A stretch of 64,000 bases of DNA from a virus. Where the stretch lies: the UHGV virus genome UHGV-1421865; one strand, given 5' to 3'. Made by a program: the position numbers and the translations under genes. The notes beneath the pieces were generated by a model. The model did no database searches. It was not told where the DNA came from and worked only from the letters and a program-made list of their open reading frames with translations. Shown here piece by piece: positions 5,613-61,409 of this stretch; the stretch's first letter is position 1; every line of letters begins with the position of its first letter.

Positions 5613-6371
5613 CTAGAGGCCACAGAGGGATCTCAATACGGTTTTGAATTCACCCGACATATTACATTTGTCACTGAGACACCAGTCGATGTAGCTCGGA
5701 TCGATTTTATGAATTTTTTGTACGTCACAACTCCGATATTTACCGAAATTGAACACCACTGCACCGTCGCGGAATGTCTTCAACGAATTGTCGGTAACGA
5801 TAATCGGTACCATTAAGTTATCGGTTTGCTCTTTTTGTTTATTAAATACTTCAAACGTAGCTTTCACGTCCGAAAGTGCGTCGTGGGCGTTTAGTCCGGA
5901 CTCTTCCATTGAATGGCCTGTGTATTTTTCATAAATACCTTCCAGGTCGGTCGGATTGATTCTGTTGTTAATCAAGAAAGAGTCGAAAATAACACGGTCA
6001 GTGAAATTAATAGACTTACCGTATCGTTTGAGTTCCTCGTTCAAGAATGGAATATCAAAGCTATTGCCATTGAATGTCAATACAGCATTCTCTTTCGGAT
6101 TACCGAAGAATTCAACAATTTGGTCTGCGACTTCTTCAAAATGGGGGTATTGTTCCAATTGTTTCGGTGTGATACCGTGTTTGAAATATGCACCCATACT
6201 AATCTTATAAGGTTGTACAGGTTGGATTTTAAGGTCGAGTTCATCAACTACCTCATTTGTTTTCGCATCGTATTTAATAGCCGAGAACTGGATAATCTGA
6301 TCCGTCTCACGATACAGTCCGGTACATTCAATGTCAAATGCGACGATATACTTGTAATTTTGACTTTTCAT
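5613..6371 (-). CDS. DnaQ-like 3'-5' exonuclease (DEDDh; T4 DexA-like)
   Basis: Exo I VAFDIECTG, Exo III H.A..D (HDALSDV). Confidence 0.7.
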   Translation of the reverse strand: MKSQNYKYIVAFDIECTGLYRETDQIIQFSAIKYDAKTNEVVDELDLKIQPVQPYKISMGAYFKHGITPKQLEQYPHFEEVADQIVEFFGNPKENAVLTFNGNSFDIPFLNEELKRYGKSINFTDRVIFDSFLINNRINPTDLEGIYEKYTGHSMEESGLNAHDALSDVKATFEVFNKQKEQTDNLMVPIIVTDNSLKTFRDGAVVFNFGKYRSCDVQKIHKIDPSYIDWCLSDKCNMSGEFKTVLRSLCGL

Positions 6372-6978: not shown

Positions 6979-7083
6979 ATCTTTAATGTATGTTTAATTG
7001 GTTTACTTGTTCGTATATTTGTATTATAGCGAACTTTGTGAGCAAAATCAGTGCAGTTACAATCAACTTGTAATATACATACA

Positions 7084-7230
7084 AAAACTCAAGAAAATCT
7101 CGTCTGTATCGCGTCGAAATCTTCTAGCCTTCACATACCCAGGTAAGTACGTTTGGACGCGACAGAGAGGCTAAAAAGTGCCTCTATGGACGTGTAATAG
7201 TTCAGCATACCGGTACACGCAACATAAACT
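7084..7230 (-). repeat. conserved about 150-nt intergenic element, copy A (candidate structured RNA or regulatory module)
   Basis: Outer inverted repeat TCTGTATCGCGTC/GACGCGACAGAGA around inner hairpin; flank GAGGCTAAAAAGTGCCTCTATGG; contains TAcgTTTG. Confidence 0.6.
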
Positions 7231-7259
7231 CGAGAAATCAACGTAGTTTGTGCACAAAA

Positions 7260-7622: not shown

Positions 7623-7674
7623 AATTATTTTTCTATAGTATAGTACATTTGTACAGGACAAATCAAAACCTCTA

Positions 7675-7815
7675 AAAATTTGCTCTCTGACGCACGATTT
7701 TTGTTGGACCTTACACATACTAAGGTCACTACATTTGAGTGTGTTAGAGAGCCTTAAAAGTGCCTTTACGAGGACGTTAGGTATTTACATACCAGTGCGC
7801 AAAACAGAAACTGTC
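7675..7815 (-). repeat. conserved about 150-nt intergenic element, copy B
   Basis: CTCTCTGACGCAC...GTGTGTTAGAGAG stem with two G-T positions; inner hairpin GGACCTTA..TAAGGTC; TAcaTTTG motif. Confidence 0.6.
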
Positions 7816-7884
7816 TAAATCAGTGCATTTTACAGAATCTACACGTACAGATTTTTACATATACAACAAATATAAACCGACACA
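7815..7884 (+). promoter_or_regulatory. candidate promoter region upstream of giant gene (AAATCAGTGCA ... CAGATTTTTACATATA)
   Basis: Motif pair also present upstream of 26151 array. Confidence 0.3.
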
Positions 7885-14029: not shown

Positions 14030-14070
14030 CAATAACAAAATAAGACGGTCTCTGGAATGAACGAGATCGT
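14030..14070. terminator. hairpin terminator after giant gene
   Basis: AATAAGACGgtctc...gagatCGTCTTATTTCAG; stem then T-run. Confidence 0.5.
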
Positions 14071-14109
14071 CTTATTTCAGTTATATATCGACTAAACTCT
14101 AAACGTCCA

Positions 14110-14258
14110 AAAATCTCCTCTCTAACGCACGATTTTTCTTTGACCTTCACTAGGCTAAGCCTAGTATATTTGAGTGCGTTAGAGAGCCTTAAAAGTGCCT
14201 TTACGGGCTTGTAATGTATTTGTACGTCCCTGCCCAAAACAGAAAACGTACAAATCAG
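14110..14258 (-). repeat. conserved about 150-nt intergenic element, copy C
   Basis: CTCTCTAACGCAC...GTGCGTTAGAGAG perfect stem; inner hairpin CTAGGCTAAGCCTAG; TAtaTTTG motif preceded by TTTG 22 nt upstream. Confidence 0.6.
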
Positions 14259-14322
14259 GACAAAAAGTATGATTTATCATATAAAAACAGCTATTGTAAA
14301 TATACAAATATAGTAAATAAAT

Positions 14323-17845: not shown

Positions 17846-18958
17846 TTAATACAGTTCTATACGTAGACCTAACTTATTGGCTTTTAACATCTTAGATGAT
17901 GTAGAGTTTATATCACCCGTGAAGAGTACTTTCGCGTCTGACCAACTGTTTGTTTGAACGTACTGTGGATTCTTCTCCAGAAATTCTTTCTTAGACGCAT
18001 ATTTAGACGGACTACCCGTCAACATCACAGGCACTTGTGTAGTCTTGCTTGTACCGACGTGTAAGTTTGTAAGTTGACACATACCAATGCCGTAGTCAGT
18101 AAGTGCGTTAACCAACGCATTGAATTGCAACCATTTAGGTGATTGGTGATTATAGACCCAACTGTACCCTTCCGATGCGACACCACTGAAATCGGCTTGT
18201 CCAGTACCGATGAACTGCGCACATTTCTTAGCGCATGTGGAACCACATTTGTTGAAATTCAACGACTTGATGATGTCTACTAATGTGATTTGTCGTCGGT
18301 AATTCTTAAACGATTCGGCGGCTTTCTGCCCTCGTTTACCTTTCAACGCTTGTTCTATCTGTTCCGGTCTTACTTGGAGTATATTTGTTAAACTCTCGAA
18401 GTTATGTTGTAAAGTGTCGTACAACGCAGCCGCTACAGACGGACCGATGTTAGGTATCTTCAGAGTTTGTGCAGACGCGATGAACTGCCCACGGTTACTC
18501 ACAAGACCCACCAGATGACAACCTTCTACAACAGCATCATTTGGTAAACTACCGAGGTCCTTTGATGGATTGTCAAGTACAGAATAAAGAAACGGAATAA
18601 TGTCACCGGCTAAGGAAACTTCAATCTCCGTACCTATACCTACTTGATTATCAATAAGATAGCCGTAGTTATGTCCAGAACATTTAGTGACTATTTTATC
18701 AAGTAGTACAACAGGTTCAAAGACAATCACCGGTGTATACTCTCCGGTCTTACCTTGGTTCCATACAATATCTACTACCTTCGTCTTTTGAATTTCCGGA
18801 ACAAATTTCACAGCAACGCAGTCCGACGGTCGAACTTTATCGGTATTCTGTTCTCTGACAGGGAGTATAGGCTTGATAACAAACCCGTCCAGAGCATATT
18901 CACACTCTTCGGTACGGTATTTGTTAAAGTCGTTATATAGTTCTTGTAAGGTACTCAT
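17846..18958 (-). CDS. NAD-dependent DNA ligase, C-terminal polypeptide (NTase motifs IV-V, OB, HhH and BRCT-like regions)
   Basis: Begins inside adenylation domain: LDGFVIKP (motif IV), VAVKF (motif V); start ATG overlaps stop of upstream TS-like gene (TAATG). Confidence 0.7.
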   Translation of the reverse strand: MSTLQELYNDFNKYRTEECEYALDGFVIKPILPVREQNTDKVRPSDCVAVKFVPEIQKTKVVDIVWNQGKTGEYTPVIVFEPVVLLDKIVTKCSGHNYGYLIDNQVGIGTEIEVSLAGDIIPFLYSVLDNPSKDLGSLPNDAVVEGCHLVGLVSNRGQFIASAQTLKIPNIGPSVAAALYDTLQHNFESLTNILQVRPEQIEQALKGKRGQKAAESFKNYRRQITLVDIIKSLNFNKCGSTCAKKCAQFIGTGQADFSGVASEGYSWVYNHQSPKWLQFNALVNALTDYGIGMCQLTNLHVGTSKTTQVPVMLTGSPSKYASKKEFLEKNPQYVQTNSWSDAKVLFTGDINSTSSKMLKANKLGLRIELY

Positions 18959-19926
18959 TATACTGCGATAGGTGCTTTAATAACAGGGGGTGTATAAGAA
19001 CCGTCGAAATGTTTCTTTACCTTTATCTGTCGGCTTTCGTACATCTCCAAAATATAACACAAATAAGCGTCTAAGGACATCGGTACATTCACAGTAGACA
19101 TGGTCATATCCAAGGTGCATTCTACGGTATGATAACATTGCGTCACATAGTCATCGGTATTAGTAAAGAACGAATCGATATATTCCTGTACAGCATCTTT
19201 ATGATTGTCGTAGATATGGAAATTATCGGCGGTATAGTATATATTTCCGCATTTTACTTTATCGATACCATATTTCTTTTTGAACCATTCATGGTTGACC
19301 TTAAAATAGCCGTTTATAAACCAGTTGAACCAAGAACAGAATATGAAATTATACGGCGCACCCAAGAACGCGTCGTTACTGCGAATATGAGCATGTAGGT
19401 TGTGTGTAAGTACTGTATTCCCAGCGTCGTCTGTGTCCAACTGAAATGTAACGTTATATTCGAACATACAAGGTGCCAGTGCCATTTCCGGTAGGTCGTT
19501 CACATTCCAAAGTGAGATAATATGTCGGCGCGAGAATAAATTGTTATTGAAACCTTCAAATAGTTGTTTCAACTGATCAATACCGTTAAAGTTTCGAAAC
19601 TGATAACCGTACGCCTTACCGATAGTACCATCTTCCTGTACCCATTCATCCCAATAGGTAACACCGTGGTCGCGAAGCCACTGTACGTCGGTCCGTCCTT
19701 GCAGCATCCAGAGTAGTTCGGTGAGTGCCATTCGAGGATAAACACGTTTTCCGTTCACCACCATCAGTCGAACTTCGTCGGACGGTGAAGGAGACTGTTC
19801 AAATACAAAGTTGATACCGTAAGAGTTCAACGTACTGATGTCGGTTCTATTCGACATTTTCTGTGTGACAGTCGACAATATGTTAGTAAGCTGTCTTACA
19901 TAGTCTGTTTCAAATAGTTGTGTCAT
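18958..19926 (-). CDS. thymidylate synthase family enzyme (ThyA or dUMP-hydroxymethylase-like) with about 100-aa C-terminal extension
   Basis: LTELLWMLQGRTDV, RRHIISLWNVNDL, MALAPCM (catalytic Cys), PYN (Asn, uracil-specific); 322 aa versus about 260 typical. Confidence 0.75.
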   Translation of the reverse strand: MTQLFETDYVRQLTNILSTVTQKMSNRTDISTLNSYGINFVFEQSPSPSDEVRLMVVNGKRVYPRMALTELLWMLQGRTDVQWLRDHGVTYWDEWVQEDGTIGKAYGYQFRNFNGIDQLKQLFEGFNNNLFSRRHIISLWNVNDLPEMALAPCMFEYNVTFQLDTDDAGNTVLTHNLHAHIRSNDAFLGAPYNFIFCSWFNWFINGYFKVNHEWFKKKYGIDKVKCGNIYYTADNFHIYDNHKDAVQEYIDSFFTNTDDYVTQCYHTVECTLDMTMSTVNVPMSLDAYLCYILEMYESRQIKVKKHFDGSYTPPVIKAPIAV

Positions 19927-20602
19927 TGTTTAATGGATATTCTAGTTTATAAAATTTAGGTGTCTTGGGAAGTCCGTACCATTCTCGTTCTGTCCACTTA
20001 CCGTTTTCTAATACTCTATAATCGTATATGATAATGTCTAAATCATCGTCGTATTCGTGAGATGTACTATTCAAGACACCCGATACCATCGAACGAGGAC
20101 TCGAGAACTTATCTTTGTATTTCTCTTCAAATGTCTTCAGTTTTACCAGCACCTCACCACGTATAACTGCCTGTGCACCATATACATAGTAGTCTGGATA
20201 AACCGATCGAATTTGCTTAATAAGGTGGCTACGCAAGTCTTTACCGTAATTCCCGTCGCCCCGAGACGATATGCTGCCAACAGTACCGTTCGCATTGATA
20301 ACACATTCGAAAGAACAACCGTCGAATTTCGGGGTCACTTCTATGGCATTATCACCGACATATTTTTTAATATCTTCTGTATAATTAGAAAAATCATCTA
20401 AGCTATGAACTTGGACCTTGTAGAGGGATCCCATTATAAACGGATGCCGTACAGTATATGTTGTACTGGATTTAGTACCGATATAAGACTTGTTCTCGAG
20501 ACCTAGCTCTTTCTCTAACGCGTCAAATTCTGTGTCAGACATTATCTCCTGCCCATTGTAGTATGCTTCTTTTGCTTTATGGTATAATTCTTCTTTTGTC
20601 AT
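19910..20602 (-). CDS. NAD-dependent DNA ligase, N-terminal polypeptide (domain Ia plus NTase motif I)
   Basis: YYNGQEIMSDTEFDALEKEL (domain Ia), HPFIMGSL, KxDG lysine motif TPKFDGCSF; ends 17 nt after start of TS-like gene. Confidence 0.7.
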   Translation of the reverse strand: MTKEELYHKAKEAYYNGQEIMSDTEFDALEKELGLENKSYIGTKSSTTYTVRHPFIMGSLYKVQVHSLDDFSNYTEDIKKYVGDNAIEVTPKFDGCSFECVINANGTVGSISSRGDGNYGKDLRSHLIKQIRSVYPDYYVYGAQAVIRGEVLVKLKTFEEKYKDKFSSPRSMVSGVLNSTSHEYDDDLDIIIYDYRVLENGKWTEREWYGLPKTPKFYKLEYPLNNDTTI

Positions 20603-20684
20603 CTTATCATCATATAGTTTATACTTTATATAGTATAGTTTACAAGAAAAATCAGCTACTTAAAACATTGTTTTGGGTCTACTT

Positions 20685-20835
20685 TGACAGTTTCTATTTC
20701 GTGTACCGACGTGTACAAATCTAGAATCGTCATAAAGGCACTTTAGAGCTCCTGTATCGCGTCGAAATTATCTAGCCTTACTACAACCAAGGTCAACTAA
20801 TTTGTACGCGATACAGGAGAGATTTTTATTGAGTT
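20685..20835 (+). repeat. conserved about 150-nt intergenic element, copy D (core inverted relative to flanks)
   Basis: Flanks in the same orientation as copies E-H, but the core CCTGTATCGCGTC-gaaattatctagcctt...-CGCGATACAGGA matches copy A core as read on the opposite flank orientation. Confidence 0.55.
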
Positions 20836-20924
20836 TCAAATGGGTACACTGACGCCGTGTGGGACACGTTGTGTGTACCGTCTTGATGCTTTGCATCAAA
20901 TTGTTCACAAAGTGAACATAATTA

Positions 20925-20965
20925 AGACCTCAGTAGACTTATAACAATCTACTGAGGTCTCTAAC
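20925..20965. terminator. hairpin AGACCTCAGTAGA...TCTACTGAGGTCT
   Basis: 13-bp perfect stem. Confidence 0.45.
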
Positions 20966-21039: not shown

Positions 21040-21172
21040 TCTCTTGCTCTATTAGTACACGCAACTCGTTGTAAGTAGCAGGTTTTAATTTAGCCGATTT
21101 CGTATTCGATGTGATCTTTAGACGTTCGTTAATGAAATTTTGTAGACTCATTTATTCGCTAGTATTGTTTAT
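21040..21172 (-). pseudogene. DUF285 N-module remnant (truncated after about 44 codons)
   Basis: Translates MSLQNFINERLKITSNTKSAKLKPATYNELRVLIEQEIKNQGPY then stop; no repeats follow. Confidence 0.4.
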
Positions 21173-21810
21173 CAGTCTTTGAATTTTGGTTGAAGTTGTG
21201 GATTAGTTCCCATATTAGGACATTTATCAAATGTCATATAATACTTGATTACTTTCGACACATCCCACTCAGACAAGTCACAATTGAAACGTTCGCAAAA
21301 ATAGAACATATAACTCATATTTTTAACATTGGTGACATTCCAAGAACTTAAATCTACATTTAGCTTTTTACACCAAGAGAACATATCTTCCATGTTTTCT
21401 ACTTTACTAACGTTCCAATTTTCTATACCTTTGCCTTCAAATTTTTTACATTCATAAAACATGAAAGACATGTTCGTTACATTAGAGGTGTTCCAATTTT
21501 CTACTCCATCGCCTCTGAAGTTATCTTGACCTACAAACATGTTTTGCATAGTAGTTACATTTGATGTATTCCACTGGTCAATTTTGATATTTCCGATGTT
21601 TAATTTATAAAACAAACTAACCATATCTGTAATCTCCGATGTATCTATAAAGTTCAAATCGGCGTTCGGACCTTGTTCTTTTAGTTCTTGTTCTATAATA
21701 GATCTGAGTTCGTCTTTTGTTTTAGGTCTCAATCTTAATGGTTGGGTATCGGGCGTAATCTTTAATCGTTCTGTGATTAAACTATCGTGAATGTATCGTG
21801 AAAGTGACAT
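21172..21810 (-). CDS. DUF285-repeat protein; C-terminal 71 aa identical to 26151..26696
   Basis: N-module MSLSRYIHDSLITERLKITPD...; 3' 214 bp identical in inverted orientation to 26478..26694. Confidence 0.6.
   Translation of the reverse strand: MSLSRYIHDSLITERLKITPDTQPLRLRPKTKDELRSIIEQELKEQGPNADLNFIDTSEITDMVSLFYKLNIGNIKIDQWNTSNVTTMQNMFVGQDNFRGDGVENWNTSNVTNMSFMFYECKKFEGKGIENWNVSKVENMEDMFSWCKKLNVDLSSWNVTNVKNMSYMFYFCERFNCDLSEWDVSKVIKYYMTFDKCPNMGTNPQLQPKFKD
21177..21392. repeat. left arm of perfect 214-bp inverted repeat
   Basis: Reverse complement identical to 26478..26694. Confidence 0.8.
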
Positions 21811-26150: not shown

Positions 26151-26696
26151 ATGTCACTTTCAACATTCATCACAGAACGATTAAAGATTACATCTAACTC
26201 TAAATCAGCTATACACAAACCATCGTCGAGAGACGAACTCAAATCTATTATAGAACAAGAACTGGAACGTCAAGGTCCGGATGCCGATTTGAACCATATT
26301 GACGTATCTTACATTACAGATATGTCTTATTTATTTTACAAATTAAACATCGAAAACATTAAAATCGACCAGTGGGACGTTTCCAATGTCACTAATATGG
26401 AAGGGATGTTTTATGAATGTAGTAATTTTGAAGGCAACGGCCTAGAAAACTGGGACGTATCGAACGTCACTACTATGGAAGATATGTTCTCTTGGTGTAA
26501 AAAGCTAAATGTAGATTTAAGTTCTTGGAATGTCACCAATGTTAAAAATATGAGTTATATGTTCTATTTTTGCGAACGTTTCAATTGTGACTTGTCTGAG
26601 TGGGATGTGTCGAAAGTAATCAAGTATTATATGACATTTGATAAATGTCCTAATATGGGAACTAATCCACAACTTCAACCAAAATTCAAACAGTAA
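26151..26696 (+). CDS. DUF285-repeat protein (N-module type MSLS.FITERLKITS)
   Basis: N-module plus repeats; 3' 214 bp identical in inverted orientation to 21177..21392. Confidence 0.6.
   Translation: MSLSTFITERLKITSNSKSAIHKPSSRDELKSIIEQELERQGPDADLNHIDVSYITDMSYLFYKLNIENIKIDQWDVSNVTNMEGMFYECSNFEGNGLENWDVSNVTTMEDMFSWCKKLNVDLSSWNVTNVKNMSYMFYFCERFNCDLSEWDVSKVIKYYMTFDKCPNMGTNPQLQPKFKQ
26478..26694. repeat. right arm of perfect 214-bp inverted repeat
   Basis: Reverse complement identical to 21177..21392. Confidence 0.8.
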
Positions 26697-26702
26697 TCAA
26701 CA

Positions 26703-27299
26703 ATGGCAATACACATCACATCAAATACAAAATCTCTCAGAGTAAAACCTACGGACGAAACAGAATTACGTGACATTGTCGAACAAGAGTTAGACAGTCA
26801 AGGTCCAGATGCCGACCTGAACTTCATTGATACGTCTCTTATAACAGATATGAGGGGGCTATTTTATAGTTTTAGAGGTATTAGAAATATCAAGATAGAC
26901 AAGTGGGACACTTCAAATGTTTTGGACATGCGTTCTATGTTCGGCAAATGTTACGAATTAAACACTGATCTATCTAAGTGGGACGTTTCAAATGTTAAAA
27001 ATATGTCACACATGTTCATCGAATGTTATAAATTCAATTCGGACCTATCCGGTTGGGACACATCAAGTGCGGTTAACATGGAATCTATGTTCGACAGCTG
27101 TACAATTTTTGAATCCGACTTATCCGAATGGAATACCAGTAAAGTTACCCACATGTCTAGTATGTTTCAAAAATGCTCTAAATTCGAGTCTGACCTATCC
27201 GCTTGGGATGTATCGAATGTCAAAAAGAACGGTGGGATGTTTTATATGTGTACTAAAATGATGGGTAAAAAACATCTACAACCTAAATTTAATATATAA
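26703..27299 (+). CDS. DUF285-repeat protein (N-module type MAIHITS)
   Basis: MAIHITSNTKSLRVKPTDETELRDIVEQELDSQGPDADLNFIDTSLITDM plus about 6 repeats. Confidence 0.6.
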   Translation: MAIHITSNTKSLRVKPTDETELRDIVEQELDSQGPDADLNFIDTSLITDMRGLFYSFRGIRNIKIDKWDTSNVLDMRSMFGKCYELNTDLSKWDVSNVKNMSHMFIECYKFNSDLSGWDTSSAVNMESMFDSCTIFESDLSEWNTSKVTHMSSMFQKCSKFESDLSAWDVSNVKKNGGMFYMCTKMMGKKHLQPKFNI

Positions 27300-27304
27300 A
27301 TAAT

Positions 27305-28081
27305 ATGTCACTTTCAAAATACATCACAGAACGGTTAAAGATTACGTCGAATACAAAATCGGCCAATAACCAACATACATTGTTTCCTAAAGATTTAAAG
27401 GAGCTCCTACCGATATTAGAAGATGAAATTAAAAAACAAGGTCCAGATGCTGACTTGAATCACATTGACGTATCGCAAATTACAGAAATGCACGATTTAT
27501 TTTATAGAATTTACATTAGAAACATCAAAGTCGACAAATGGGACGTGTCGAATGTAGTGAATATGCGTAAAGCGTTTACTGGTCATAAAGACTTTAACGC
27601 TGACCTATCATCCTGGGATGTATCAAATGTAGAGAATATGCGTAGTATGTTTGAAGGATGCCCGAACTTCAATGCTGACCTGTCAGAATGGGATGTATCT
27701 AAGTGTAGAGATTTCTGTAACGTATTTAATGGATGTGAAAAATTCAACCATGATCTGTCTAATTGGGATGTTTCTAAGGCTTGGATTACAGCAGGTATGT
27801 TTCAGGATTGTAATAGTTTTGAATCAGATTTATCTTCTTGGAATGTATCTAATGTAAAGGACATGAATAGGATGTTCCAAAACTGTTGGAAATTCAATTC
27901 CGATCTGTCTGGTTGGAATGTATCAAAAGTTGAAACAGTATCACAAATGTTCGAGAATTGTACAAGATTTAGAAGTAATTTATCTAAATGGGATGTAAAT
28001 CGTGTAAAAACTTGGTATAAGTTCAGTGCTGAGTGTCCAAATTTTAATGATAAGAGTAATTTGCCTGAAAAACTTAGATAG
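27305..28081 (+). CDS. DUF285-repeat protein
   Basis: MSLSKYITERLKITSNTKSA... plus about 8 repeats. Confidence 0.6.
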   Translation: MSLSKYITERLKITSNTKSANNQHTLFPKDLKELLPILEDEIKKQGPDADLNHIDVSQITEMHDLFYRIYIRNIKVDKWDVSNVVNMRKAFTGHKDFNADLSSWDVSNVENMRSMFEGCPNFNADLSEWDVSKCRDFCNVFNGCEKFNHDLSNWDVSKAWITAGMFQDCNSFESDLSSWNVSNVKDMNRMFQNCWKFNSDLSGWNVSKVETVSQMFENCTRFRSNLSKWDVNRVKTWYKFSAECPNFNDKSNLPEKLR

Positions 28082-28113
28082 ATTTAAACAATACTAACTA
28101 TATTTAATACACT

Positions 28114-28965
28114 ATGTCACTTTCAAAATACATCACAGAACGATTAAAAATTACGTCAAATAGCAAATCGGCTACTAGACTAAAACCTAAAACAAGATAT
28201 GAGCTTAGTTCGTTGATAGGGGAAGAATTAGAACGTCAAGGTCCCGATGCCGATTTGAACTTTATCGACACATCGGATATTACAGACATGTCTGAGTTGT
28301 TTTCTGGGTTTAACATAGAAAACATCAAAATAGACCAGTGGGACGTTTCTAATGTCGATAATATGTATCGTATGTTTAATTTATGTACTAGCTATAATGG
28401 TGACTTGAGCAATTGGGACGTTTCTAATGTTGAGAACATGTATGGTATGTTTAACGGTTGTATGTCATTTACCGGAGAAGGTATAGGAAATTGGAATGTC
28501 TTAAATGTTACTAATATGTCGACAATGTTTATGGGTTGTAAAGTATTGAATCCTGACCTATCTGGATGGGACGTTTCTAATGTCAATGACATGCGCGCTA
28601 TGTTCGATATGGCAAATTCTTTTGAAGGGAAAGGTTTAGATAAATGGCGTACCACCAAGCTTACTGATACAAAACAGATGTTTTATGGTTGTGATAATTT
28701 CAATTGTGACTTGTCTGACTGGGATGTGTCTAACGTAACAACCATGTTATCTATGTTTGAGTCTTGTTATAAATTTGATTCTAATTTGGGTAAGTGGGAC
28801 GTTAGCAATGTGACGGATATGAAATTTATGTTCAGAAACTGTTATAATTTCAAAGGCATCGGTTTGGAAATGTGGAATACTTCAAATGTAATTACAATGA
28901 ATTCAATGTTCGACGGTTGTAAGAAATTAAATGTCGATTTAAGTTCTTGGAATGTTTGTTTCTAA
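28114..28965 (+). CDS. DUF285-repeat protein
   Basis: MSLSKYITERLKITSNSKSA... plus about 10 repeats; first 45 nt nearly identical to 27305 start. Confidence 0.6.
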   Translation: MSLSKYITERLKITSNSKSATRLKPKTRYELSSLIGEELERQGPDADLNFIDTSDITDMSELFSGFNIENIKIDQWDVSNVDNMYRMFNLCTSYNGDLSNWDVSNVENMYGMFNGCMSFTGEGIGNWNVLNVTNMSTMFMGCKVLNPDLSGWDVSNVNDMRAMFDMANSFEGKGLDKWRTTKLTDTKQMFYGCDNFNCDLSDWDVSNVTTMLSMFESCYKFDSNLGKWDVSNVTDMKFMFRNCYNFKGIGLEMWNTSNVITMNSMFDGCKKLNVDLSSWNVCF

Positions 28966-29044
28966 AGTAGGACCTTATAATACATTTAAGCTAAAATCTG
29001 GCACCCACCCAAATTCAATATCTAAAAATAACACAGTTTCACTA

Positions 29045-29506
29045 ATGTCACTTTCACAATACATCACAGAACGACTAAAGATTACATCTAATAGTAAATC
29101 TGCAACAGTGACACCAAAGTCAAGAGACGAACTCAGATCTCTTATAGAAAAAGAATTAGAACACCAAGGCCCAGATGCTGATCTAAATTTCATTGATACA
29201 TCTGAGATTACCGATATGTCATACCTGTTCGAAGACTGTAATATCAGAAACATCAAAATAGACGAATGGGATGTCAGCAATGTAACTGATATGCGCGGCA
29301 TGTTTGTTTGGCGTAAAGATTTCAATTGTGACTTGTCTCGTTGGGACGTATCTAACGTCACAAACATGACTGATATGTTCAACACCTGTAAAGAATTTAA
29401 CTGTGACTTATCCGGTTGGGATGTATCTAATGTTGTTAAGCATTTTAGTGTATTTTTTAACTGTGATAAGATACAAGATAACATGACTCCTAAATTCAAT
29501 AAATAA
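29045..29506 (+). CDS. DUF285-repeat protein (start corrected to MSLSQYITERLK)
   Basis: Track ORF extended 31 codons upstream; family N-module begins at 29045. Confidence 0.55.
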   Translation: MSLSQYITERLKITSNSKSATVTPKSRDELRSLIEKELEHQGPDADLNFIDTSEITDMSYLFEDCNIRNIKIDEWDVSNVTDMRGMFVWRKDFNCDLSRWDVSNVTNMTDMFNTCKEFNCDLSGWDVSNVVKHFSVFFNCDKIQDNMTPKFNK

Positions 29507-29523
29507 ATAAATAAATCAAAAAT

Positions 29524-30051
29524 ATGAGTTTACAAAAATACATCAAAGAAGCACTGTCGCCCGGTAGCTTTAATAACAAACCTACTACGACACAAGAACT
29601 CAGAGATCTTATAAAAGAGGTGTTTGATAAACAAGGACACAATGCCGACCTGAACTTCATCGATACGTCGTTGATTACTGATATGTCCGAACTATTCAGA
29701 GACCTTTATCCCCAAAACATCAAAATCGACAAATGGGATGTCTCTAATGTGACGAAGATGAACCACATGTTTGTCGATTGTATGTATCTTAAAACAGATA
29801 TTTCTGATTGGGACACCAGCAATGTTACAGATATGCAATATATGTTCTGTAATTGTAGTTACTTCAACGGTGACTTGTCCGGTTGGGACGTATCTAACGT
29901 TACTAACATGGATTTGATGTTCAAAGGTTGTGCGCGACTGGAATGCGACTTATCCTATTGGGATGTCGACAATGTAGAAACTCACTTCGACGCTTTTGAA
30001 GGTTGTGAAAAGATGACCGATGAAATGCTACCGAAATTTGAATTTTCATAA
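29524..30051 (+). CDS. DUF285-repeat protein (divergent N-module)
   Basis: MSLQKYIKEALSPG...ELRDLIKEVFDKQGHNADLNFIDTSLITDMS plus repeats. Confidence 0.55.
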   Translation: MSLQKYIKEALSPGSFNNKPTTTQELRDLIKEVFDKQGHNADLNFIDTSLITDMSELFRDLYPQNIKIDKWDVSNVTKMNHMFVDCMYLKTDISDWDTSNVTDMQYMFCNCSYFNGDLSGWDVSNVTNMDLMFKGCARLECDLSYWDVDNVETHFDAFEGCEKMTDEMLPKFEFS

Positions 30052-30840
30052 ATGAAACTACAAAAATTCATCACAGAACGGTTAAAGATTACGTCTAAGT
30101 CAAGACCACTCAAACTAACAGAACGTACATTGTTTCCGACTAACTCCGGGCAACTTAAAGCTGTAATAAAACATGAATTGAAACATCAAGGTCCGGATGC
30201 CGATTTGAACCATATCGATACTTTTAAGATCACCGATATGTCTAAATTATTTGAATCTCTACAAATCGGAAACATCAAAATCAACGAATGGGACGTCAGT
30301 AATGTCACTAATATGAGGTTCATGTTTAGCGGGCGTACTAAATTCAATTGCGACTTGTCCGGTTGGGACGTCAGTAATGTAACAGATATGGGGTTCATGT
30401 TTAGTAGTTGTACGTTATTTGAGGGTGGTGGTTTAGATCATTGGGATACGTCCAACGTGGCAGATATGGAACAGATGTTTTACGGTTGTGAGAATTTCAA
30501 TTGTGACCTATCTAGTTGGTCTTCGCGTGTCTCTAATGTGACAAATATGAACGGTATGTTTTCTGGAGCTGATAAATTTGAAGGTAATGGTTTAGATCAT
30601 TGGGATACGTCCAACGTGACACGCATGCGTGCTATGTTTAAGGGTTGTAAGGTTTTTGAAAGCGACATATCCGGTTGGGATACGTCAAATGTTGAGGACA
30701 TGTCGTATATGTTTATGGACTGCGGTAAGTTCAAATCAAATCTATCAGGCTGGAACGTATCTAAATTAGGCGGTCCTCAGATTAATATATTCAAAAATTG
30801 TCCTAAGATGATACCTCCGTTGAGACCTCGATTTGAATAG
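30052..30840 (+). CDS. DUF285-repeat protein
   Basis: MKLQKFITERLKITSKSRPL... plus about 8 repeats. Confidence 0.6.
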   Translation: MKLQKFITERLKITSKSRPLKLTERTLFPTNSGQLKAVIKHELKHQGPDADLNHIDTFKITDMSKLFESLQIGNIKINEWDVSNVTNMRFMFSGRTKFNCDLSGWDVSNVTDMGFMFSSCTLFEGGGLDHWDTSNVADMEQMFYGCENFNCDLSSWSSRVSNVTNMNGMFSGADKFEGNGLDHWDTSNVTRMRAMFKGCKVFESDISGWDTSNVEDMSYMFMDCGKFKSNLSGWNVSKLGGPQINIFKNCPKMIPPLRPRFE

Positions 30841-33920: not shown

Positions 33921-33958
33921 TTAAAAGACGATCTCAGCTATTTTGGGTCGTCTTTTTT
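33921..33958. terminator. hairpin terminator AAAAGACGATCtcagctattttgggTCGTCTTTTTTGT (left inverted-repeat arm)
   Basis: Stem plus T-run immediately after plus-strand gene stop; inverted copy at 34449..34492. Confidence 0.6.
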
Positions 33959-33982
33959 GTATCATTTTACATCGATTTGTAT

Positions 33983-34130
33983 GATTTCTGTTTTGTGTAC
34001 TGGTATACCAAACTATAACAAGCCCGTAAAGGCACTTTTTAGCCTCTCTAACGCACTCAAATGTACTTACCTTGGTACTACCAAGCCTCAACAAAAATCG
34101 TGCGTTAGAGGGGAGATTTTTGTGTGTTTT
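33983..34130 (+). repeat. conserved about 150-nt intergenic element, copy E
   Basis: GTTTCTGTTTTGTGTACTGGTAT...CGTAAAGGCACTTTTTAGCC-TCTCTAACGCAC-[CCTTGGTAgTACCAAGG]-GTGCGTTAGAGG-GGAGATTTTTGTG. Confidence 0.65.
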
Positions 34131-34296
34131 CAAAATCAACCTACCTATTATGATGTTGGTTGTGTCACAACGTATAATAAAATACATATAAAGCGTACTT
34201 TACGTATATTATATGATACCTTATGGAAAATCACATTAACTTTATTAGTACAGTATCTTTAGTACTGTTTGGTAGCAGTTTAGTGTGATTTTGTCG

Positions 34297-34445
34297 GTTT
34301 CTGTTTTGTGTACTGGTATACCAAACTATAACAAGCCCGTAAAGGCACTTTTTAGCCTCTCTAACGCACTCAAATGAAGTGACCTTAGTAGTACCAAGGT
34401 CAAAGAAAAATCGTGCGTTAGAGGGTAAATTTTGTAGGTTTTTGA
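34297..34445 (+). repeat. conserved about 150-nt intergenic element, copy F (tandem with E)
   Basis: Same architecture; inner hairpin GACCTTaGTAgTACcAAGGTC. Confidence 0.65.
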
Positions 34446-34448
34446 TTT

Positions 34449-34492
34449 AGCAAAAAAAAAGACGACCTCAAAATAACTGAGATCGTCTTTTC
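34449..34492. terminator. hairpin terminator (right inverted-repeat arm)
   Basis: AAAAAGACGAcctcaaaataactgagaTCGTCTTTT; reverse complement matches 33921..33958 including the loop. Confidence 0.6.
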
Positions 34493-34502
34493 TTATATGG
34501 TA

Positions 34503-34859
34503 TTAGTGTGGTAGCGACTTATAGTTTTTATCAAATGACCTACCGACCTGTGTTAGTACAGGACCGTAACTAGTGCCGATAGTGTCACCTAAATGGTCTA
34601 TTTCACCTGTACCGTATTCCATGTATACGGAAAAGTCGCGGTCTTCAAATTCCTTATTTACAGCATCGACTAAATTGTCTACTGTGTCCGGTGCTGTAAT
34701 TATCTGAAAACAACATTGCTGAAATACCTCATAGTCGAACGTATACAACTTTTGTAGTCTTTTCAATATATTGTTAATATACCATGAACGAGGCATTTGT
34801 GTATACATCACTTTATCAGACTTAACAAGACCGCCTAAGATTACACTGTATTCTTTCAT
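34503..34859 (-). CDS. hypothetical protein
   Basis: 118 aa ORF, ATGA overlap with next gene. Confidence 0.4.
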   Translation of the reverse strand: MKEYSVILGGLVKSDKVMYTQMPRSWYINNILKRLQKLYTFDYEVFQQCCFQIITAPDTVDNLVDAVNKEFEDRDFSVYMEYGTGEIDHLGDTIGTSYGPVLTQVGRSFDKNYKSLPH

Positions 34860-35260
34860 AATTTCTTAAATTGTGAGTTATATAATGAAAAATCTGGTTT
34901 ATGTCTATCTAAGATATAACAGCCGAAGAACATTAATGCCGCACTTTTTACATTCGATACGTCCCAACTAGCTAAATCACAATCGAAATCTTTACACAAA
35001 GTAAACATACCGTGCATGTCAGTGACGTTGCTGACGTCCCACTCGTCGATTTTGATGTTTCGAGGGTATAAATTTAGAAATAAATCAGACATGTCTGTTA
35101 TTTTGGATGTGTCGATGAAATTTAGATCTGCATCTGGTCCTTGGCGTTCTAATTCTTTTTCTATAATAGATCTGAGTTCGTCTTTTGTTGTTGATTTTAT
35201 ACTGAGTAATTTAGACTTAGATGTAATACGCAGTCTACTGGGTCTATTATGTATCGCCAT
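34856..35260 (-). CDS. DUF285-repeat protein (N-module type MAIHNRPSRLRITS)
   Basis: N-module plus 3 repeats. Confidence 0.6.
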   Translation of the reverse strand: MAIHNRPSRLRITSKSKLLSIKSTTKDELRSIIEKELERQGPDADLNFIDTSKITDMSDLFLNLYPRNIKIDEWDVSNVTDMHGMFTLCKDFDCDLASWDVSNVKSAALMFFGCYILDRHKPDFSLYNSQFKKL

Positions 35261-35269
35261 AATAACATA

Positions 35270-36628
35270 CTAAAACTGTTTTGTTAATACTGTATTAAGT
35301 CTCTTCAAATCGGCGATGTACATTTCTTCGATTGTTTGTTTCTTAATACGTTTTATTTCTGCTTCTAGTTCTTTGTTGTCTTTTAATAGCTTGTCGTACT
35401 CTTCTTTTGTACACCGCACCATGGAGGTATGAACAAGTTCCCAGAGTAGCTTGTGCTTGTCCATATCGACCTTAATGTCTTTCTGTGGACGGTTGTTGAT
35501 CTTCAATTTGTTCTTTATAATAAGATCTATAAAACGAGCGAGGTCTGTATTCTTGTTGAGTTTCTTATTTAAGATGTCCAACAACAATGTTTTACGCTTC
35601 TTATAAATAGACAACCGCCAGTTTACAAAGTATTCTGTCAATTCATAGATGTTATTGAAATAACGAATTTTCTTGTTCTCGTCTAAGACGTACAACTGGT
35701 CGGACGGTACTTGTTTCGTCAGCTTCAGTGTCGTTCCAACGTATTTGTCGACTTGCTTGTCTGTCAATTTAGCCTTACCGGTACTGGTGAACTTGATTTT
35801 GTAGCTAATGTTAGAACCACTACTATTATTGACATAGTCCTTAACGATACCTTTCTCAATTTGTTTATTAAGGATACTTTCGAAATCGTCGAAGTCTATA
35901 TTATACGGCAACTCTGTTATTTCTAGTGTTGTCGAATTTAGTACTTTGTAAGTACCAGAACACAACCATGTGTTGTTTTCTTTATCGAACAACCATGCCG
36001 ACTTAGGAATATCTCTTATATAAGGACTAATCGTCGGTTTCTTCTTCGATTTTTCCAGGACGGCGATACAGTATTTTGTAACGTCGACAGGATTGTACGA
36101 CATACAGTAGAATCTATACCCCGGCGCCATTCCTTCTTGCATATTACAAATCACAGTCGGAATAATAGGAAGAAAACATTCCGGTTCGACATACTGTCCT
36201 TCGTCGTAGATATATTCCAACAACTCGCTGTCTGTTTTCCATATATCGGCATATTCTGATAACGACACATAAAGATAACGCGGTGCAGAAATTGCCTTCG
36301 GTGTTCGTAGCGTTCCGTTTTGTCCGTCGACGTACAGCGGATTTAGATTGAATCTAAACTGTTGCGACAGGGTGATGATAGTACCGTTCAGTGAGGCGTC
36401 ACCGTGAGGGTATAACGACAGGTTGAGTGTATCGCCCGACAGGTTGAGTAGTTTTTTCGAAGCACCGGATTTTAATCCACCGTTAAACGCAGCGTGCATG
36501 ATCTTTCGAGCACCCGTCTTTAAGCCGTCTCGTAGGTCGGGAAGGGCTCTGTTCTGGAGCACATAAAATACGTACCCTTTGTATTCTTCTGAAAGGAATT
36601 TAGATATATCTTTAGATTGTTTTGTCAT
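35270..36628 (-). CDS. type II DNA topoisomerase medium subunit (GyrA-like N-terminus; T4 gp52-like)
   Basis: RALPDLRDGLKTGARK and LYPHGDASL signatures of the topo II A subunit. Confidence 0.8.
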   Translation of the reverse strand: MTKQSKDISKFLSEEYKGYVFYVLQNRALPDLRDGLKTGARKIMHAAFNGGLKSGASKKLLNLSGDTLNLSLYPHGDASLNGTIITLSQQFRFNLNPLYVDGQNGTLRTPKAISAPRYLYVSLSEYADIWKTDSELLEYIYDEGQYVEPECFLPIIPTVICNMQEGMAPGYRFYCMSYNPVDVTKYCIAVLEKSKKKPTISPYIRDIPKSAWLFDKENNTWLCSGTYKVLNSTTLEITELPYNIDFDDFESILNKQIEKGIVKDYVNNSSGSNISYKIKFTSTGKAKLTDKQVDKYVGTTLKLTKQVPSDQLYVLDENKKIRYFNNIYELTEYFVNWRLSIYKKRKTLLLDILNKKLNKNTDLARFIDLIIKNKLKINNRPQKDIKVDMDKHKLLWELVHTSMVRCTKEEYDKLLKDNKELEAEIKRIKKQTIEEMYIADLKRLNTVLTKQF

Positions 36629-38870: not shown

Positions 38871-38883
38871 AGTTGTATTTTTT

Positions 38884-39489: not shown

Positions 39490-39509
39490 AATAATAACAA
39501 TTATAAGAA

Positions 39510-41506: not shown

Positions 41507-41867
41507 GTTGATTAAATAGTTGATTTGTGTATTATATAGTCTATTTTATGCTGAGAATCAGTGCATGTGACGTCCAGATTATTAACTATATTTTTGATAC
41601 AGATATGGACATCAAAAACGCACCGAAAAGTAAAATGTCGTTATATAAAGAAAAATATGAATACAACGGTAGTAACAAGTACGACTATGCCGCGAACGGG
41701 GTACTCACCAAAACACTTCCGAAGATACTATTTAAGGGCAATTCCTTGTTCGTTACATTCTTACAACTCATTGACCTTCGTATTATCAACCTACTAAAAT
41801 ACATCGACGAACTTAAAAACTTCAAGTCTGTTTGATACTATTTTGCTCGCATTTTGGTCTGATTTGC

Positions 41868-42020
41868 GCGGTTTCTGTTTTGTGTACTGGTATGCAAATA
41901 CCCAACGTCCACGTAAAGGCACTTTTTAGGCTCTCTGGCGCACTCAAATTAGTTGGGCTTAGTATGTGTAAGGTCCAACAAAAATCGTGCGTTACAGGGC
42001 AAATTTTCTTAGGTTTGGAC
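41868..42020 (+). repeat. conserved about 150-nt intergenic element, copy G
   Basis: Stem GCTCTCTGGCGCAC/GTGCGTTACAGGGC with G-T positions; inner hairpin TTGGgCTTA...TAAGgtCCAA. Confidence 0.6.
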
Positions 42021-42029
42021 TTTAGAAAA

Positions 42030-42075
42030 TAAACAAGACGATCTTATTCACTTAGGATCGTCTTGTTTATTGTGT
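42030..42075. terminator. hairpin AAACAAGACGATC...GATCGTCTTGTTT
   Basis: 13-bp stem sharing the AAGACGATC core with terminators at 33921 and 34449. Confidence 0.55.
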
Positions 42076-59994: not shown

Positions 59995-60077
59995 AATTAG
60001 GCTGTTTTATGCTGTATAAATAGCAACATTTACAGACAAAATCAGTGTACCGTATAGATTCCTACACATATTTCTAC

Positions 60078-60228
60078 AGTTTCTATTTCGCGTACTGGTA
60101 TATACAAACATAGAATCGACGTAAAGGTACTTTTTAGCCTCTCTGACGCACTCAAATGCACTGACCTTGGTACTACTAAGGTCAAACAAAAATCGTGCGG
60201 TACAGGGCAAATTTTTGTACGTTTTGAA
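60078..60228 (+). repeat. conserved about 150-nt intergenic element, copy H
   Basis: CAGTTTCTATTTCGCGTACTGGTAT...CGTAAAGGTACTTTTTAGCC-TCTCTGACGCAC-[GACCTTgGTAcTACtAAGGTC]-GTGCGGTACAGGG-CAAATTTTTGT. Confidence 0.6.
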
Positions 60229-60612: not shown

Positions 60613-60617
60613 TGAAA

Positions 60618-61400: not shown

Positions 61401-61409
61401 AATATAGTG

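What the first reader, a model, noticed from the sequence alone, without database searches (positions are those of the whole stretch)
20685..20835. One element copy has its hairpin core inverted relative to its flanks
Copy D at 20685-20835 has the flanks of the E/F/G/H orientation: ...CATAAAGGCACTTT upstream and GAGATTTTTATTG downstream. Its core, CCTGTATCGCGTC-gaaattatctagccttactacaaccaaggtcaac-taatttgta-CGCGATACAGGA, matches the core of copy A as copy A reads with oppositely oriented flanks (TCTGTATCGCGTC-gaaatcttctagccttcacatacccaggtaag-tacgtttg-GACGCGACAGAGA). So the segment between the 12-13 bp inverted repeats is flipped in one of eight copies. This could come from inversion between the inverted arms or from a template-switch across the hairpin. 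It reverses the orientation of the TAnnTTTG-like motif carried in the core. The element may therefore behave as a small invertible or variable regulatory cassette.
Basis: seen in the sequence. Interest (0 to 1): 0.7.

Follow-up and report, generated by a model that had tools for sequence, protein, structure and literature searches.

The report
Flipped hairpin core in phage repeat
One copy of a repeated intergenic hairpin cassette in an uncultured huge phage really does carry its 45-base centre backwards, but it looks like a fixed, passive "hairpin flip" mutation and not a working genetic switch.

Summary
The window, a Lak-related huge phage from human oral metagenomes, has exactly eight copies of a ~167-nt intergenic element. 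At least four more lie just outside the window and about 15 in three related phages.

In copy D, perfect 13-bp inverted arms (20749-20761 and 20807-20819) enclose a 45-nt interior (20762-20806). That interior is the reverse complement of what its flanks predict. D is the only one of 18 aligned copies whose core fits the family profile better backwards. Its interior shares an exact 16-mer and 32/43 bases with a sister copy only when inverted.

The "invertible cassette" reading is not supported as an active switch:
- four assemblies show the same orientation;
- about 27 other copies are canonical;
- no recombinase gene lies next to any copy;
- 45 nt is very short for enzymatic inversion.

The best explanation is a fixed hairpin-mediated small inversion, either template switching or exchange between the arms. 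Plastid "flip-flop" inversions are the known parallel.

The element itself is directional and co-oriented with neighbouring genes. Canonical terminators often precede it. It most resembles the composite terminator/promoter stem-loop cassettes (PeSLs) of T4-like phages, but its function is unproven.

The parts
20672..20838 (-). Element copy D. The strand given is the 'P' orientation, in which the core is followed by the conserved ~95-nt flank and which runs with the neighbouring genes.
   Evidence: nhmmer 130 bits; alignments A1 and A3
20749..20761 (.). D outer arm CTCCTGTATCGCG, a perfect inverted repeat of 20807-20819
   Evidence: sequence; 14-bp stem in the fold
20762..20806 (.). D interior, 45 nt, inverted relative to the flanks. 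It contains the inner hairpin TAGCCTT/AAGGTCA and the box CTAATTTG, which now points to +.
20807..20819 (.). D outer arm CGCGATACAGGAG
7083..7247 (+). Copy A. Its core (7104-7168) has imperfect arms CTGTATCGCGTC/GACGCGACAGAG and is the closest in-window relative of D's interior. It is co-linear with the family.
7662..7828 (+). Copy B, in a divergent intergenic region, 57 nt upstream of the 2045-aa gene
14098..14264 (+). Copy C, between the 2045-aa gene and a RuvC-like resolvase gene
33966..34132 (-). Copy E, in tandem with F in a convergent intergenic region
34279..34445 (-). Copy F. Its inner 21-mer GACCTTGGTACTACTAAGGTC is the exact reverse complement of the one in H.
41852..42019 (-). Copy G
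60062..60227 (-). Copy H, 68 nt upstream of a 131-aa gene. Its inner 21-mer is GACCTTAGTAGTACCAAGGTC.
14042..14073 (.). AAGACGRYC...GRTCGTCTT terminator-like hairpin, 25 nt before C
   Evidence: 7 strand-matches at 4 sites against 0 expected; all 4 sites lie next to element copies
33925..33954 (.). Hairpin of the same terminator type, 12 nt from E
34459..34489 (.). Hairpin of the same terminator type, 14 nt before F
42035..42064 (.). Hairpin of the same terminator type, 16 nt before G
20924..20961 (-). Intrinsic-terminator-like hairpin (16 bp plus a T-rich tail) ending the gene unit upstream of D
20843..20890 (-). Mini hairpin GGTACACACAACGTGTCCCACACGG abutting D. The same ~30-nt unit is inserted inside two element copies of the related phage.

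Best explanation
What the element is (inferred function). D belongs to a family of directional intergenic cassettes in a Lak-related huge phage. The family has at least 12 copies in this phage and at least 11 in a relative with 80-91% nucleotide identity. Read with the neighbouring genes, each copy has:
- an A-tract;
- a ~70-nt quasi-palindromic core, with 11-14-bp outer arms, an internal loop carrying TTTG/TTGACC on the left and a TAnnTTTG-like box on the right, and a 7-10-bp inner hairpin;
- a ~95-nt conserved flank, with blocks AAAGTGCCTTTAYG and GTACRCRAAAYAGAAAC.
A canonical intrinsic terminator often sits just before it, and a gene start often follows 57-70 nt after it. I read it as a composite terminator/promoter-type regulatory boundary cassette, functionally like the PeSLs of T4-like phages. 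Copies exchange sequence by recombination.

What happened at D (shown). The 45-nt interior between perfect 13-bp arms is reverse-complemented relative to the flanks.

How it happened (inferred). It was a one-off mutational event driven by the palindrome itself. The mechanism was either a double template switch across the hairpin during replication or an exchange between the two arms in an extruded hairpin or cruciform. The same class of event produces the 'flip-flop' small inversions at plastid hairpins. The state is fixed in the sampled population and is not a programmed switch. Both orientations fold equally well. Because D's interior is quasi-symmetric, the flipped copy still shows TTGACC-N18-GATAAT and TAATTTCG toward the ligase gene, so the flip may be nearly neutral.
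For: Inversion:
- Orientation tests.
- Exact 16-mer and 32/43 identity to sister copy x4 only when inverted.
- Copy s1 in a related phage has arms and proximal flanks identical to D's but a canonical interior.

Fixed state:
- The D locus is 100% identical in L050-L053. No other strains were found.

Palindrome-driven process:
- In D and s1 the right arm is a perfect complement of the left. In most copies the arms differ in a consistent way (CTGTAAC... on the left...GTCAGAG on the right).
- D is isoenergetic in both orientations, -33.5 and -33.9 kcal/mol.
- The inner 21-mer occurs as exact reverse complements in H/r6/r9 versus F/r1.
- Plastid small inversions have the same anatomy (PMC6824564).

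Cassette role:
- Orientation follows the genes in about 10 of 10 tandem contexts, and the upstream gene's end faces the element in 14 of 18.
- All four AAGACG-type terminators in the window abut copies.
- One copy fills a whole 176-nt gap between two genes.
- Outer-stem pairs are kept through compensatory changes.
- The E/F locus has two copies here and one in the relative.
- Cores and flanks are mosaics between paralogues, and the D orthologue carries a different core.
- The PeSL description comes from PMC2839356.
Against: - No read-level data were available, so a minority orientation could be hidden under the consensus assemblies.
- The comparison is with paralogues and a positional non-orthologue. 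The only readable orthologous D locus (L056) has a different, canonical-arm core, so the ancestral state at this locus is not directly observed.
- Against canonical-arm copies alone the orientation call is weak, 14.9 vs 12.0 bits.
- Promoter function is unproven. TAnnTTTG is not clearly enriched upstream of genes in the window. The -33/-7 spacing is 22-26 nt. Canonical cores are not flagged by the sigma-70 scan.
- Seven of 18 copies face a convergent gene end and not a gene start.
- The strand of any RNA-level hairpin is ambiguous.
Confidence: 0.6

Rival explanations
1. Ectopic patch conversion, not in-situ inversion. The D core was overwritten from a paralogue lying in the opposite genomic orientation. 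A, B and C are opposite to D-H, and A's core is co-linear with D's on the + strand. The palindromic arms would give homology in either orientation, so the donor interior arrives 'backwards' relative to D's flanks.
For: - D's core matches A's on the same genomic strand (79% over 67 nt).
- Copies are clearly mosaics. D has an H-like flank and an A/x4-like interior, and the orthologous locus in L056 carries a different core.
- D-type arms occur at several loci in phage S.
Against: - Present-day A is only 34/45 identical to D's interior.
- The best match, x4, has the same genomic orientation as D. In L072 the window is reversed, so x4's + call there corresponds to window -. This makes the donor geometry uncertain.
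- 11-13 bp of homology is short for recombination.
- The end product cannot be told apart from an in-situ flip.
Confidence: 0.2
2. Programmed invertible promoter ('mini-inverton'). The arms are recombination sites, and the core flips at appreciable frequency to turn the downstream gene on or off.
For: - Inverted arms bracket a segment with promoter-like boxes.
- One copy is found in the other state.
- The inner tip is seen in both orientations among copies.
- Contigs of relatives break at the cores.
Against: - The same orientation appears in four assemblies.
- About 27 of 28 copies are canonical.
- None of the ten adjacent genes is a recombinase.
- The interior is only 45 nt.
- The arms are imperfect in most copies.
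- The contig breaks lie at the outer edge of the arms, as expected from repeats and not from inversion bubbles.
Confidence: 0.07
3. No inversion. D's interior is a diverged, highly palindromic core, and its better fit in reverse is a by-product of symmetry.
For: - D has the highest self-complementarity of the eight copies (score 23).
- Against canonical-only copies the difference is 2.9 bits.
- Three comparisons do not favour inversion: co-linear is better for C and r5, and E ties.
Against: - The asymmetric markers swap sides together. TAGCCTT and AAGGTCA are exchanged relative to A, s1 and x4.
- There is an exact 16-mer with x1 and x4 and a 16/18 match to A's other half, both only in reverse.
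- None of 136 control pairs behaves like this.
Confidence: 0.06
4. The element is a small-RNA gene read on the opposite strand. It would consist of a conserved 5' part followed by a long terminal hairpin and a U-run (GGGCAAAUUUUU). The flip would then alter the RNA's terminal hairpin and not a promoter.
For: - An invariant T-run follows the hairpin on that strand.
- The hairpin is on average about 1.8 kcal/mol more stable as RNA on that strand, and by 8-10 kcal/mol in five copies.
- E and F have no gene downstream in the P direction.
Against: - Strand preference is inconsistent. B, A, s1 and F favour the other strand.
- The T-run begins 3-7 nt after the stem.
- No promoter motif was found upstream on that strand.
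- There is no Rfam match.
- Orientation is tied to the direction of neighbouring genes, with terminators immediately upstream in the P direction.
Confidence: 0.15

Closest known systems
PeSLs (promoter-early stem-loops), the composite terminator/promoter cassettes of T4-like phages (PMC2839356, PMC4122927)
   Same: Both are repeated ~100-170-bp intergenic motifs present in many copies per genome. Both have an AT-rich tract, promoter-like boxes and a stem-loop that lies between or over the boxes. Both are co-oriented with the genes they flank. In both, direct repeats flank small genes, copy number differs between close relatives, and copies are chimeric, which implies recombination between them.
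   Different: There is no sequence similarity. The host lineage differs (a Lak-related huge phage, presumably on Bacteroidota). This hairpin is much larger and two-tiered. It carries a ~95-nt conserved flank that PeSLs lack. Promoter and terminator activity are untested here. No PeSL has been reported with an inverted core.
Small 'flip-flop' inversions at hairpins in plastid non-coding DNA (e.g. PMC6824564; Kim and Lee 2005, cited there)
   Same: The inverted segment is exactly the loop or interior between short inverted-repeat stems. The flanks are untouched. The two states have equal folding energy. No recombinase is involved. The sites are intergenic and near gene ends. There are signs of recurrence, since the inner 21-mer is found in both orientations.
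   Different: Here the inverted segment (45 nt) is itself structured and may carry regulatory boxes. The comparison is among paralogous copies in a phage genome, not orthologous loci across species.
Invertons, the invertible promoters of Bacteroides and other gut bacteria (own knowledge: Jiang et al. 2019, PhaseFinder; the Mpi-type systems of B. fragilis)
   Same: Inverted repeats bracket a segment with Bacteroidota-style promoter boxes, and one copy is in the opposite state.
   Different: Known invertons span roughly 100-750 bp, depend on a serine or tyrosine recombinase, and show both orientations within populations. None of these features is seen here.
Quasipalindrome template-switch mutagenesis (own knowledge: Ripley 1982; work from the Lovett laboratory)
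   Same: D and s1 have arms converted to a perfect complement where sister copies carry consistent mismatches. Clustered multi-base changes are explained by a single event.
   Different: The classic events perfect a palindrome. A full interior inversion needs two switches.

Membership tests
PeSL-type composite promoter/stem-loop cassette | Repeated conserved intergenic motif in many copies per phage genome | tested here: met
   8 copies in the window, 4 more within 10 kb outside it, and 11-12 in the related phage
PeSL-type composite promoter/stem-loop cassette | Contains a host-consensus promoter (-35/-10 or equivalent) with an upstream AT-rich tract | tested here: inconclusive
   An A-tract, TTTG/TTGACC and a TAnnTTTG-like box are present in the P orientation. 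However, the spacing is 22-26 nt, the first two bases of the box vary, TAnnTTTG is not clearly enriched upstream of genes, and canonical cores are not flagged by the sigma-70 scan.
PeSL-type composite promoter/stem-loop cassette | Stem-loop overlapping or adjacent to the promoter boxes | tested here: met
   Outer stem of 11-14 bp with compensatory changes, plus an inner 7-10-bp hairpin between the boxes
PeSL-type composite promoter/stem-loop cassette | Co-oriented with, and just upstream of, the genes it serves | tested here: met
   About 10 of 10 tandem contexts are co-directional, with gene starts 57-70 nt downstream for B, C (GTG start at 14323), D and H. Seven of 18 copies lie in convergent contexts.
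PeSL-type composite promoter/stem-loop cassette | Demonstrated promoter and terminator activity | not testable with these tools
   Needs reporter assays or transcript-end mapping
PeSL-type composite promoter/stem-loop cassette | Sequence homology to the T4-like PeSL motifs | tested here: not met
   No match in 50,697 phage records in near or distant mode. The resemblance is functional and architectural only.
Inverton (recombinase-driven invertible promoter) | Inverted repeats flanking the invertible segment | tested here: met
   13-bp perfect arms in D; 11-14 bp imperfect arms elsewhere
Inverton (recombinase-driven invertible promoter) | Both orientations coexist in a population | tested here: inconclusive
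   Four consensus assemblies show one orientation only.
Inverton (recombinase-driven invertible promoter) | Cognate serine or tyrosine recombinase encoded nearby | tested here: not met
   The ten genes flanking the copies have no recombinase domain, only a RuvC-like resolvase after C. The rest of the genome was not screened.
Inverton (recombinase-driven invertible promoter) | Segment long enough for synapsis (typically 100 bp or more) | tested here: not met
   The interior is 45 nt
Hairpin-bounded small inversion (plastid 'flip-flop' type) | The inverted tract is exactly the sequence between the two stem arms, with flanks unchanged | tested here: met
   D's arms and proximal flanks are identical to s1's, and the interior is reverse-complemented relative to A, s1 and x4
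Hairpin-bounded small inversion (plastid 'flip-flop' type) | The two orientations are energetically equivalent | tested here: met
   -33.5 vs -33.9 kcal/mol
Hairpin-bounded small inversion (plastid 'flip-flop' type) | Recurrent occurrence at the same kind of hairpin | tested here: inconclusive
   The inner 21-mer occurs as exact reverse complements in H/r6/r9 versus F/r1. Intermediate states (E, r5, s1) also allow a substitution path.
Curated RNA family (Rfam 15) | Covariance-model match | tested here: not met
   No hit at gathering threshold in the window. Only chance-level hits outside the element at E<=1.
IS200/IS605-derived palindromic element | Adjacent to, or derived from the ends of, a TnpA/TnpB unit | tested here: not met
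   A TnpB-like gene lies about 4-5 kb left of the window (L070:15989-17128). The nearest copies are 3.7 kb from it, and no copy abuts it.

The most novel reading that the evidence does not exclude
The core is a recombinase-independent 'mini-inverton'. A promoter built inside a hairpin would flip at a measurable rate through cruciform or template-switch chemistry during the phage's intense replication. This would give a huge phage a cheap way to vary expression of individual cassette-linked genes, here the split NAD-ligase/thymidylate-synthase operon. D would be a copy caught in, or selected for, the alternative state.
Probability: 0.07. Interest if true: 0.75.

Novelty: new variant of a known kind. 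Interest (0 to 1): 0.35.

Why it matters
The result gives a clean, checkable case of a hairpin-bounded micro-inversion inside a repeated regulatory-looking cassette of an uncultured huge phage.

It also defines the cassette family itself: terminator, A-tract, two-tier hairpin and a 95-nt conserved flank, at 12 or more copies per genome. This family is not in Rfam or in any deposited phage record.

Practical consequences:
- Such flips create clustered multi-base differences from one event. They mislead alignments and strain typing.
- The cores break metagenomic assemblies.

If the cassettes are promoters or terminators, they are a handle on the unknown transcription programme of Lak-like phages. 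If flipping were frequent, it would be a new, enzyme-free form of phase variation, but present evidence is against that.

Tried and rejected
- Rfam at gathering and E<=1 thresholds found nothing on the element. There are no tRNA or tmRNA genes.
- megablast and blastn of the locus and of the element against 50,697 phage records found no match.
- IMG/VR scans gave only chance hits with a 15-mer and nothing with the degenerate flank pattern. The GTDB genome scan found nothing.
- The G-U/A-C strand test and per-strand RNA folding, meant to decide which strand, if any, acts as RNA, gave inconsistent results across copies.
- The Bacteroidota-promoter reading was tested by TAnnTTTG enrichment upstream of genes. 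The excess in intergenic DNA is only about 1.8-fold and can be explained by AT-richness.
- The sigma-70 scan flags only the flipped D core (TTGACC-18-GATAAT), at a rate no higher than in shuffles.
- Orthologous D loci in relatives: one has no element (L054), one has a canonical core (L056/L057), and one contig starts exactly at the core edge, so the core is unreadable (L055).
- A second look-up through the neighbouring 44-aa gene returned the same contigs.
- A small conserved ORF in the flank was rejected, because the ATG is present in only some copies.
- A link to the nearby TnpB gene was rejected on distance.

Full report
**Source of the window.** The window encodes:
- a split family-B DNA polymerase;
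- a C5 methylase;
- T4-type topoisomerase II subunits;
- an NAD-ligase split around a thymidylate synthase gene;
- dozens of DUF285/BspA-like repeat proteins.

Its topoisomerase subunit is closest (46-47% aa) to the Prevotella Lak megaphages. Exact-protein look-ups place the sequence in human oral metagenome contigs of up to about 200 kb. No deposited phage record matches at the DNA level.

**The repeat family.** blastn of the D region and an nhmmer profile find exactly eight ~167-nt copies:

| Copy | Coordinates |
|---|---|
| A | 7083-7247 |
| B | 7662-7828 |
| C | 14098-14264 |
| D | 20672-20838 |
| E | 33966-34132 |
| F | 34279-34445 |
| G | 41852-42019 |
| H | 60062-60227 |

A, B and C lie in the opposite genomic orientation to D-H. 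A degenerate pattern from the conserved flank hits 7 copies against 0 expected in shuffles.

The same pattern found a related phage, R (ERZ651108 NODE-4 and NODE-28, 80-91% nt identity), with 11-12 copies. Walking 10 kb beyond each window edge in the same phage gave four more copies, x1-x4. Two further relatives, found through the ligase gene, gave copies t1 (L056) and s1 and s2 (L055). In all, about 28 copies were examined.

**Anatomy.** I use 'P orientation' for the strand on which the core is followed by the long conserved flank. On that strand a copy reads:
- AAAAC..AAAAAT;
- left arm (consensus CCCTGTAACGCAC);
- GATTTTT(C/G)TTTGACC;
- inner hairpin (for example GACCTTAGTAGTACCAAGGTC);
- a box (T/C)(A/G)CATTTGAG;
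- right arm (GTGCGTCAGAGAGCC);
- flank TTAAAAGTGCCTTTAYG - ~24 variable nt - GTACRCRAAAYAGAAAC - AAATCAG.

The outer stem is maintained by compensatory changes between sub-families (AU<->GC, CG<->UA, GC<->CG). The RNAalifold consensus is otherwise weak, at -9.4 kcal/mol. In most copies the two arms differ in a consistent way: CTGTA on the left against CTCTG for the complement of the right arm. They are perfect palindromes only in C/E/F and in the D/s1 type.

**Checking the observation.** D has perfect 13-bp arms (20749-20761, 20807-20819) and a 45-nt interior (20762-20806).
- Whole-core scores: D against A is 15 co-linear and 32 inverted. A is clearly co-linear with the other six copies.
- Leave-one-out profiles with 8 copies: D is the only copy that fits better in reverse, 35.4 vs 20.9 bits.
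- Leave-one-out profiles with 18 copies: D scores -9.7 bits forward minus reverse. All the others score +13 to +52.
- Interior only, excluding the uninformative arms: all 136 non-D pairs favour co-linearity. D favours inversion against 14 of 17 copies, most strongly A (34/45 vs 24/45) and s1 (33/45 vs 25/44).
- Copy x4 is decisive. It comes from the same phage, has the same ATCGCG-type arms and a D-like flank, and has a canonical interior. Inverted D matches it 32/43 without gaps and shares the exact 16-mer AAGGTCAACTAATTTG. Co-linear D shares at most 6 nt.
- D's other half matches the opposite half of A 16/18 as a reverse complement (sequence).

Both halves have therefore swapped sides and strands, which is a true inversion and not an artefact of the palindromic stem. 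The caveat is that D is nearly ambiguous against canonical-arm copies alone (14.9 vs 12.0 bits), because its interior is unusually symmetric.

**Is it a switch?**
- The whole D intergenic region is 100% identical, core included, in four assemblies. A second look-up returned the same contigs.
- Every other copy in four phages is canonical.
- The orthologous locus in the 89%-aa relative carries a majority-type core in canonical orientation. An 80% relative has no element there. In the 86% relative the contig begins exactly at the outer edge of a D-type arm.
- Copy s1 of that 86% relative has arms and proximal flanks identical to D's, with a canonical interior.
- The ten genes flanking the copies include no recombinase. 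The only DNA enzyme is a RuvC-like resolvase after C.
- A 45-nt interior is implausibly short for looping between recombinase sites (own knowledge).

I conclude that the flip is a fixed evolutionary event.

**Likely mechanism of the flip (inferred).** Three features point to palindrome-driven mutation.
- First, in D and s1 the right arm and its junction have been rewritten as the exact complement of the left arm. The canonical ...CAGAGAGCCTTAAAAG has become ...ACAGGAGCTCTAAAG. This is the signature of quasipalindrome template switching (own knowledge).
- Second, the two orientations of D are isoenergetic, -33.5 and -33.9 kcal/mol.
- Third, a smaller version of the same event seems to recur. 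The inner 21-mer GACCTTAGTAGTACCAAGGTC (H, r6, r9) is the exact reverse complement of GACCTTGGTACTACTAAGGTC (F, r1), so three asymmetric positions change together. The intermediates in E, r5 and s1 also permit a stepwise substitution path.

This matches the 'flip-flop' small inversions described at plastid hairpins. Those are bounded by the stem, energetically neutral and recurrent (PMC6824564).

An alternative I cannot exclude is an ectopic conversion patch copied from an oppositely oriented paralogue through the palindromic arms. The copies are demonstrably mosaic.

**What the element does (inferred, unproven).**
- Orientation is tied to transcription. In about 10 of 10 tandem-gene contexts the P orientation runs with the genes. 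The upstream gene's end faces the element in 14 of 18 cases. Gene starts follow 57-70 nt after B, C, D and H. In R, one copy fills the whole 176-nt gap between two large genes.
- A terminator-like hairpin of the form AAGACGRYC...GRTCGTCTT occurs at exactly four sites in the window. Each lies 12-25 nt from a copy (C, E, F, G). D has a different terminator 85 nt upstream.
- The unit therefore looks like a transcription-unit boundary: terminator, then an A-tract, then a hairpin that contains TTTG/TTGACC and a TAnnTTTG-like box pointing toward the flank and the next gene.
- This is the architecture of PeSLs in T4-like phages. PeSLs combine an AT-rich tract, a promoter and a stem-loop between or over the boxes, and they act as recombination points for modular shuffling (PMC2839356; PMC4122927).
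- Consistent with that, the E/F locus has two copies here and one in R. A and B, and r10 and r4, flank small genes as direct repeats.

Evidence against a simple promoter:
- the spacing between the boxes is 22-26 nt;
- the first two bases of the box vary;
- TAnnTTTG is only about 1.8-fold enriched in intergenic DNA;
- canonical cores are not picked up by a sigma-70 scan;
- seven of 18 copies sit in convergent gene contexts;
- a more gene-proximal motif (CTATACTATA[GT]AAA; TATATAAAGTATAAAC in ligase orthologues) could be the real promoter.

An sRNA read on the other strand, with a terminal hairpin plus a U-run, remains possible. Per-strand folding does not settle it.

**Consequence of the flip at D.** The CTAATTTG box now points away from the ligase operon. 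Because the interior is quasi-symmetric, the gene-facing strand still offers TTGACC-N18-GATAAT and TAATTTCG at the usual positions. The flip may therefore be close to neutral.

**Verdict.** The finding is a new variant of known kinds: a PeSL-like cassette family in a Lak-related phage, with a plastid-style hairpin micro-inversion in one copy. Interest is modest unless read-level data reveal active flipping.

Noticed in passing
window 14042-14073, 33925-33954, 34459-34489, 42035-42064: Four terminator-like hairpins share the same stem sequence (AAGACGRYC...GRTCGTCTT, against 0 expected by chance). Every one lies 12-25 nt from an element copy, which suggests a terminator module that travels with the cassette.
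   Followed up: partly
window 20843-20890; L064:12717-12731; L066:2002-2016; L059:10921-10935: A ~30-nt mini hairpin (GGTACACACAACGTGTCCCACACGG, 9-bp stem, CCC loop) abuts D. In the related phage it is inserted at different positions inside two element copies and next to a third, which looks like a tiny insertion element that targets the cassettes.
   Followed up: partly
window 17846-20602 (- strand): The NAD-dependent DNA ligase is encoded as two ORFs: the adenylation domain at 19910-20602 and the OB-fold part at 17846-18958. A thymidylate synthase gene (18958-19926) lies between them. The layout is conserved in three relatives (L054-L056).
   Followed up: no
window 21164-21495 and 26373-26704: A 332-nt inverted repeat, 89% complementary and formed by DUF285 paralogues, brackets a 4.9-kb segment. 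That segment carries the GyrB-like topoisomerase subunit and two other genes. It could be a substrate for a large inversion.
   Followed up: no
window-wide, e.g. 26151-30840 (+), 34856-40052 (-), 60241-62186 (-): Dozens of small genes are made of 75-nt-period DUF285/BspA-like repeats (WDVSNVxxMxxMF...). They dominate the repeat content of the window.
   Followed up: no
window 7630-7643 and 20625-20638 (- strand); L055-L057 upstream of the ligase gene: A gene-proximal motif, CTATACTATA[GT]AAA / TATATAAAGTATAAAC, lies 10-40 nt before start codons and is conserved in ligase orthologues. It is a candidate phage-specific promoter or translation signal.
   Followed up: partly
L055:1 and L055:6341; L057:1: Metagenomic contigs of related phages begin or end exactly at the element cores, so these cassettes fragment assemblies.
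   Followed up: partly
L070:15989-17128 (about 4-5 kb left of window position 1): An IS605 OrfB/TnpB-like gene, called as two ORFs of 284 and 93 aa, sits in the same phage genome. It is not adjacent to any element copy.
   Followed up: partly
window 719-2239 (-) and 5613-6371 (-): Family-B DNA polymerase domains are spread over separate ORFs: a 506-aa exo plus partial pol ORF, and a separate 252-aa exonuclease-like ORF. This may be another split replication gene.
   Followed up: no
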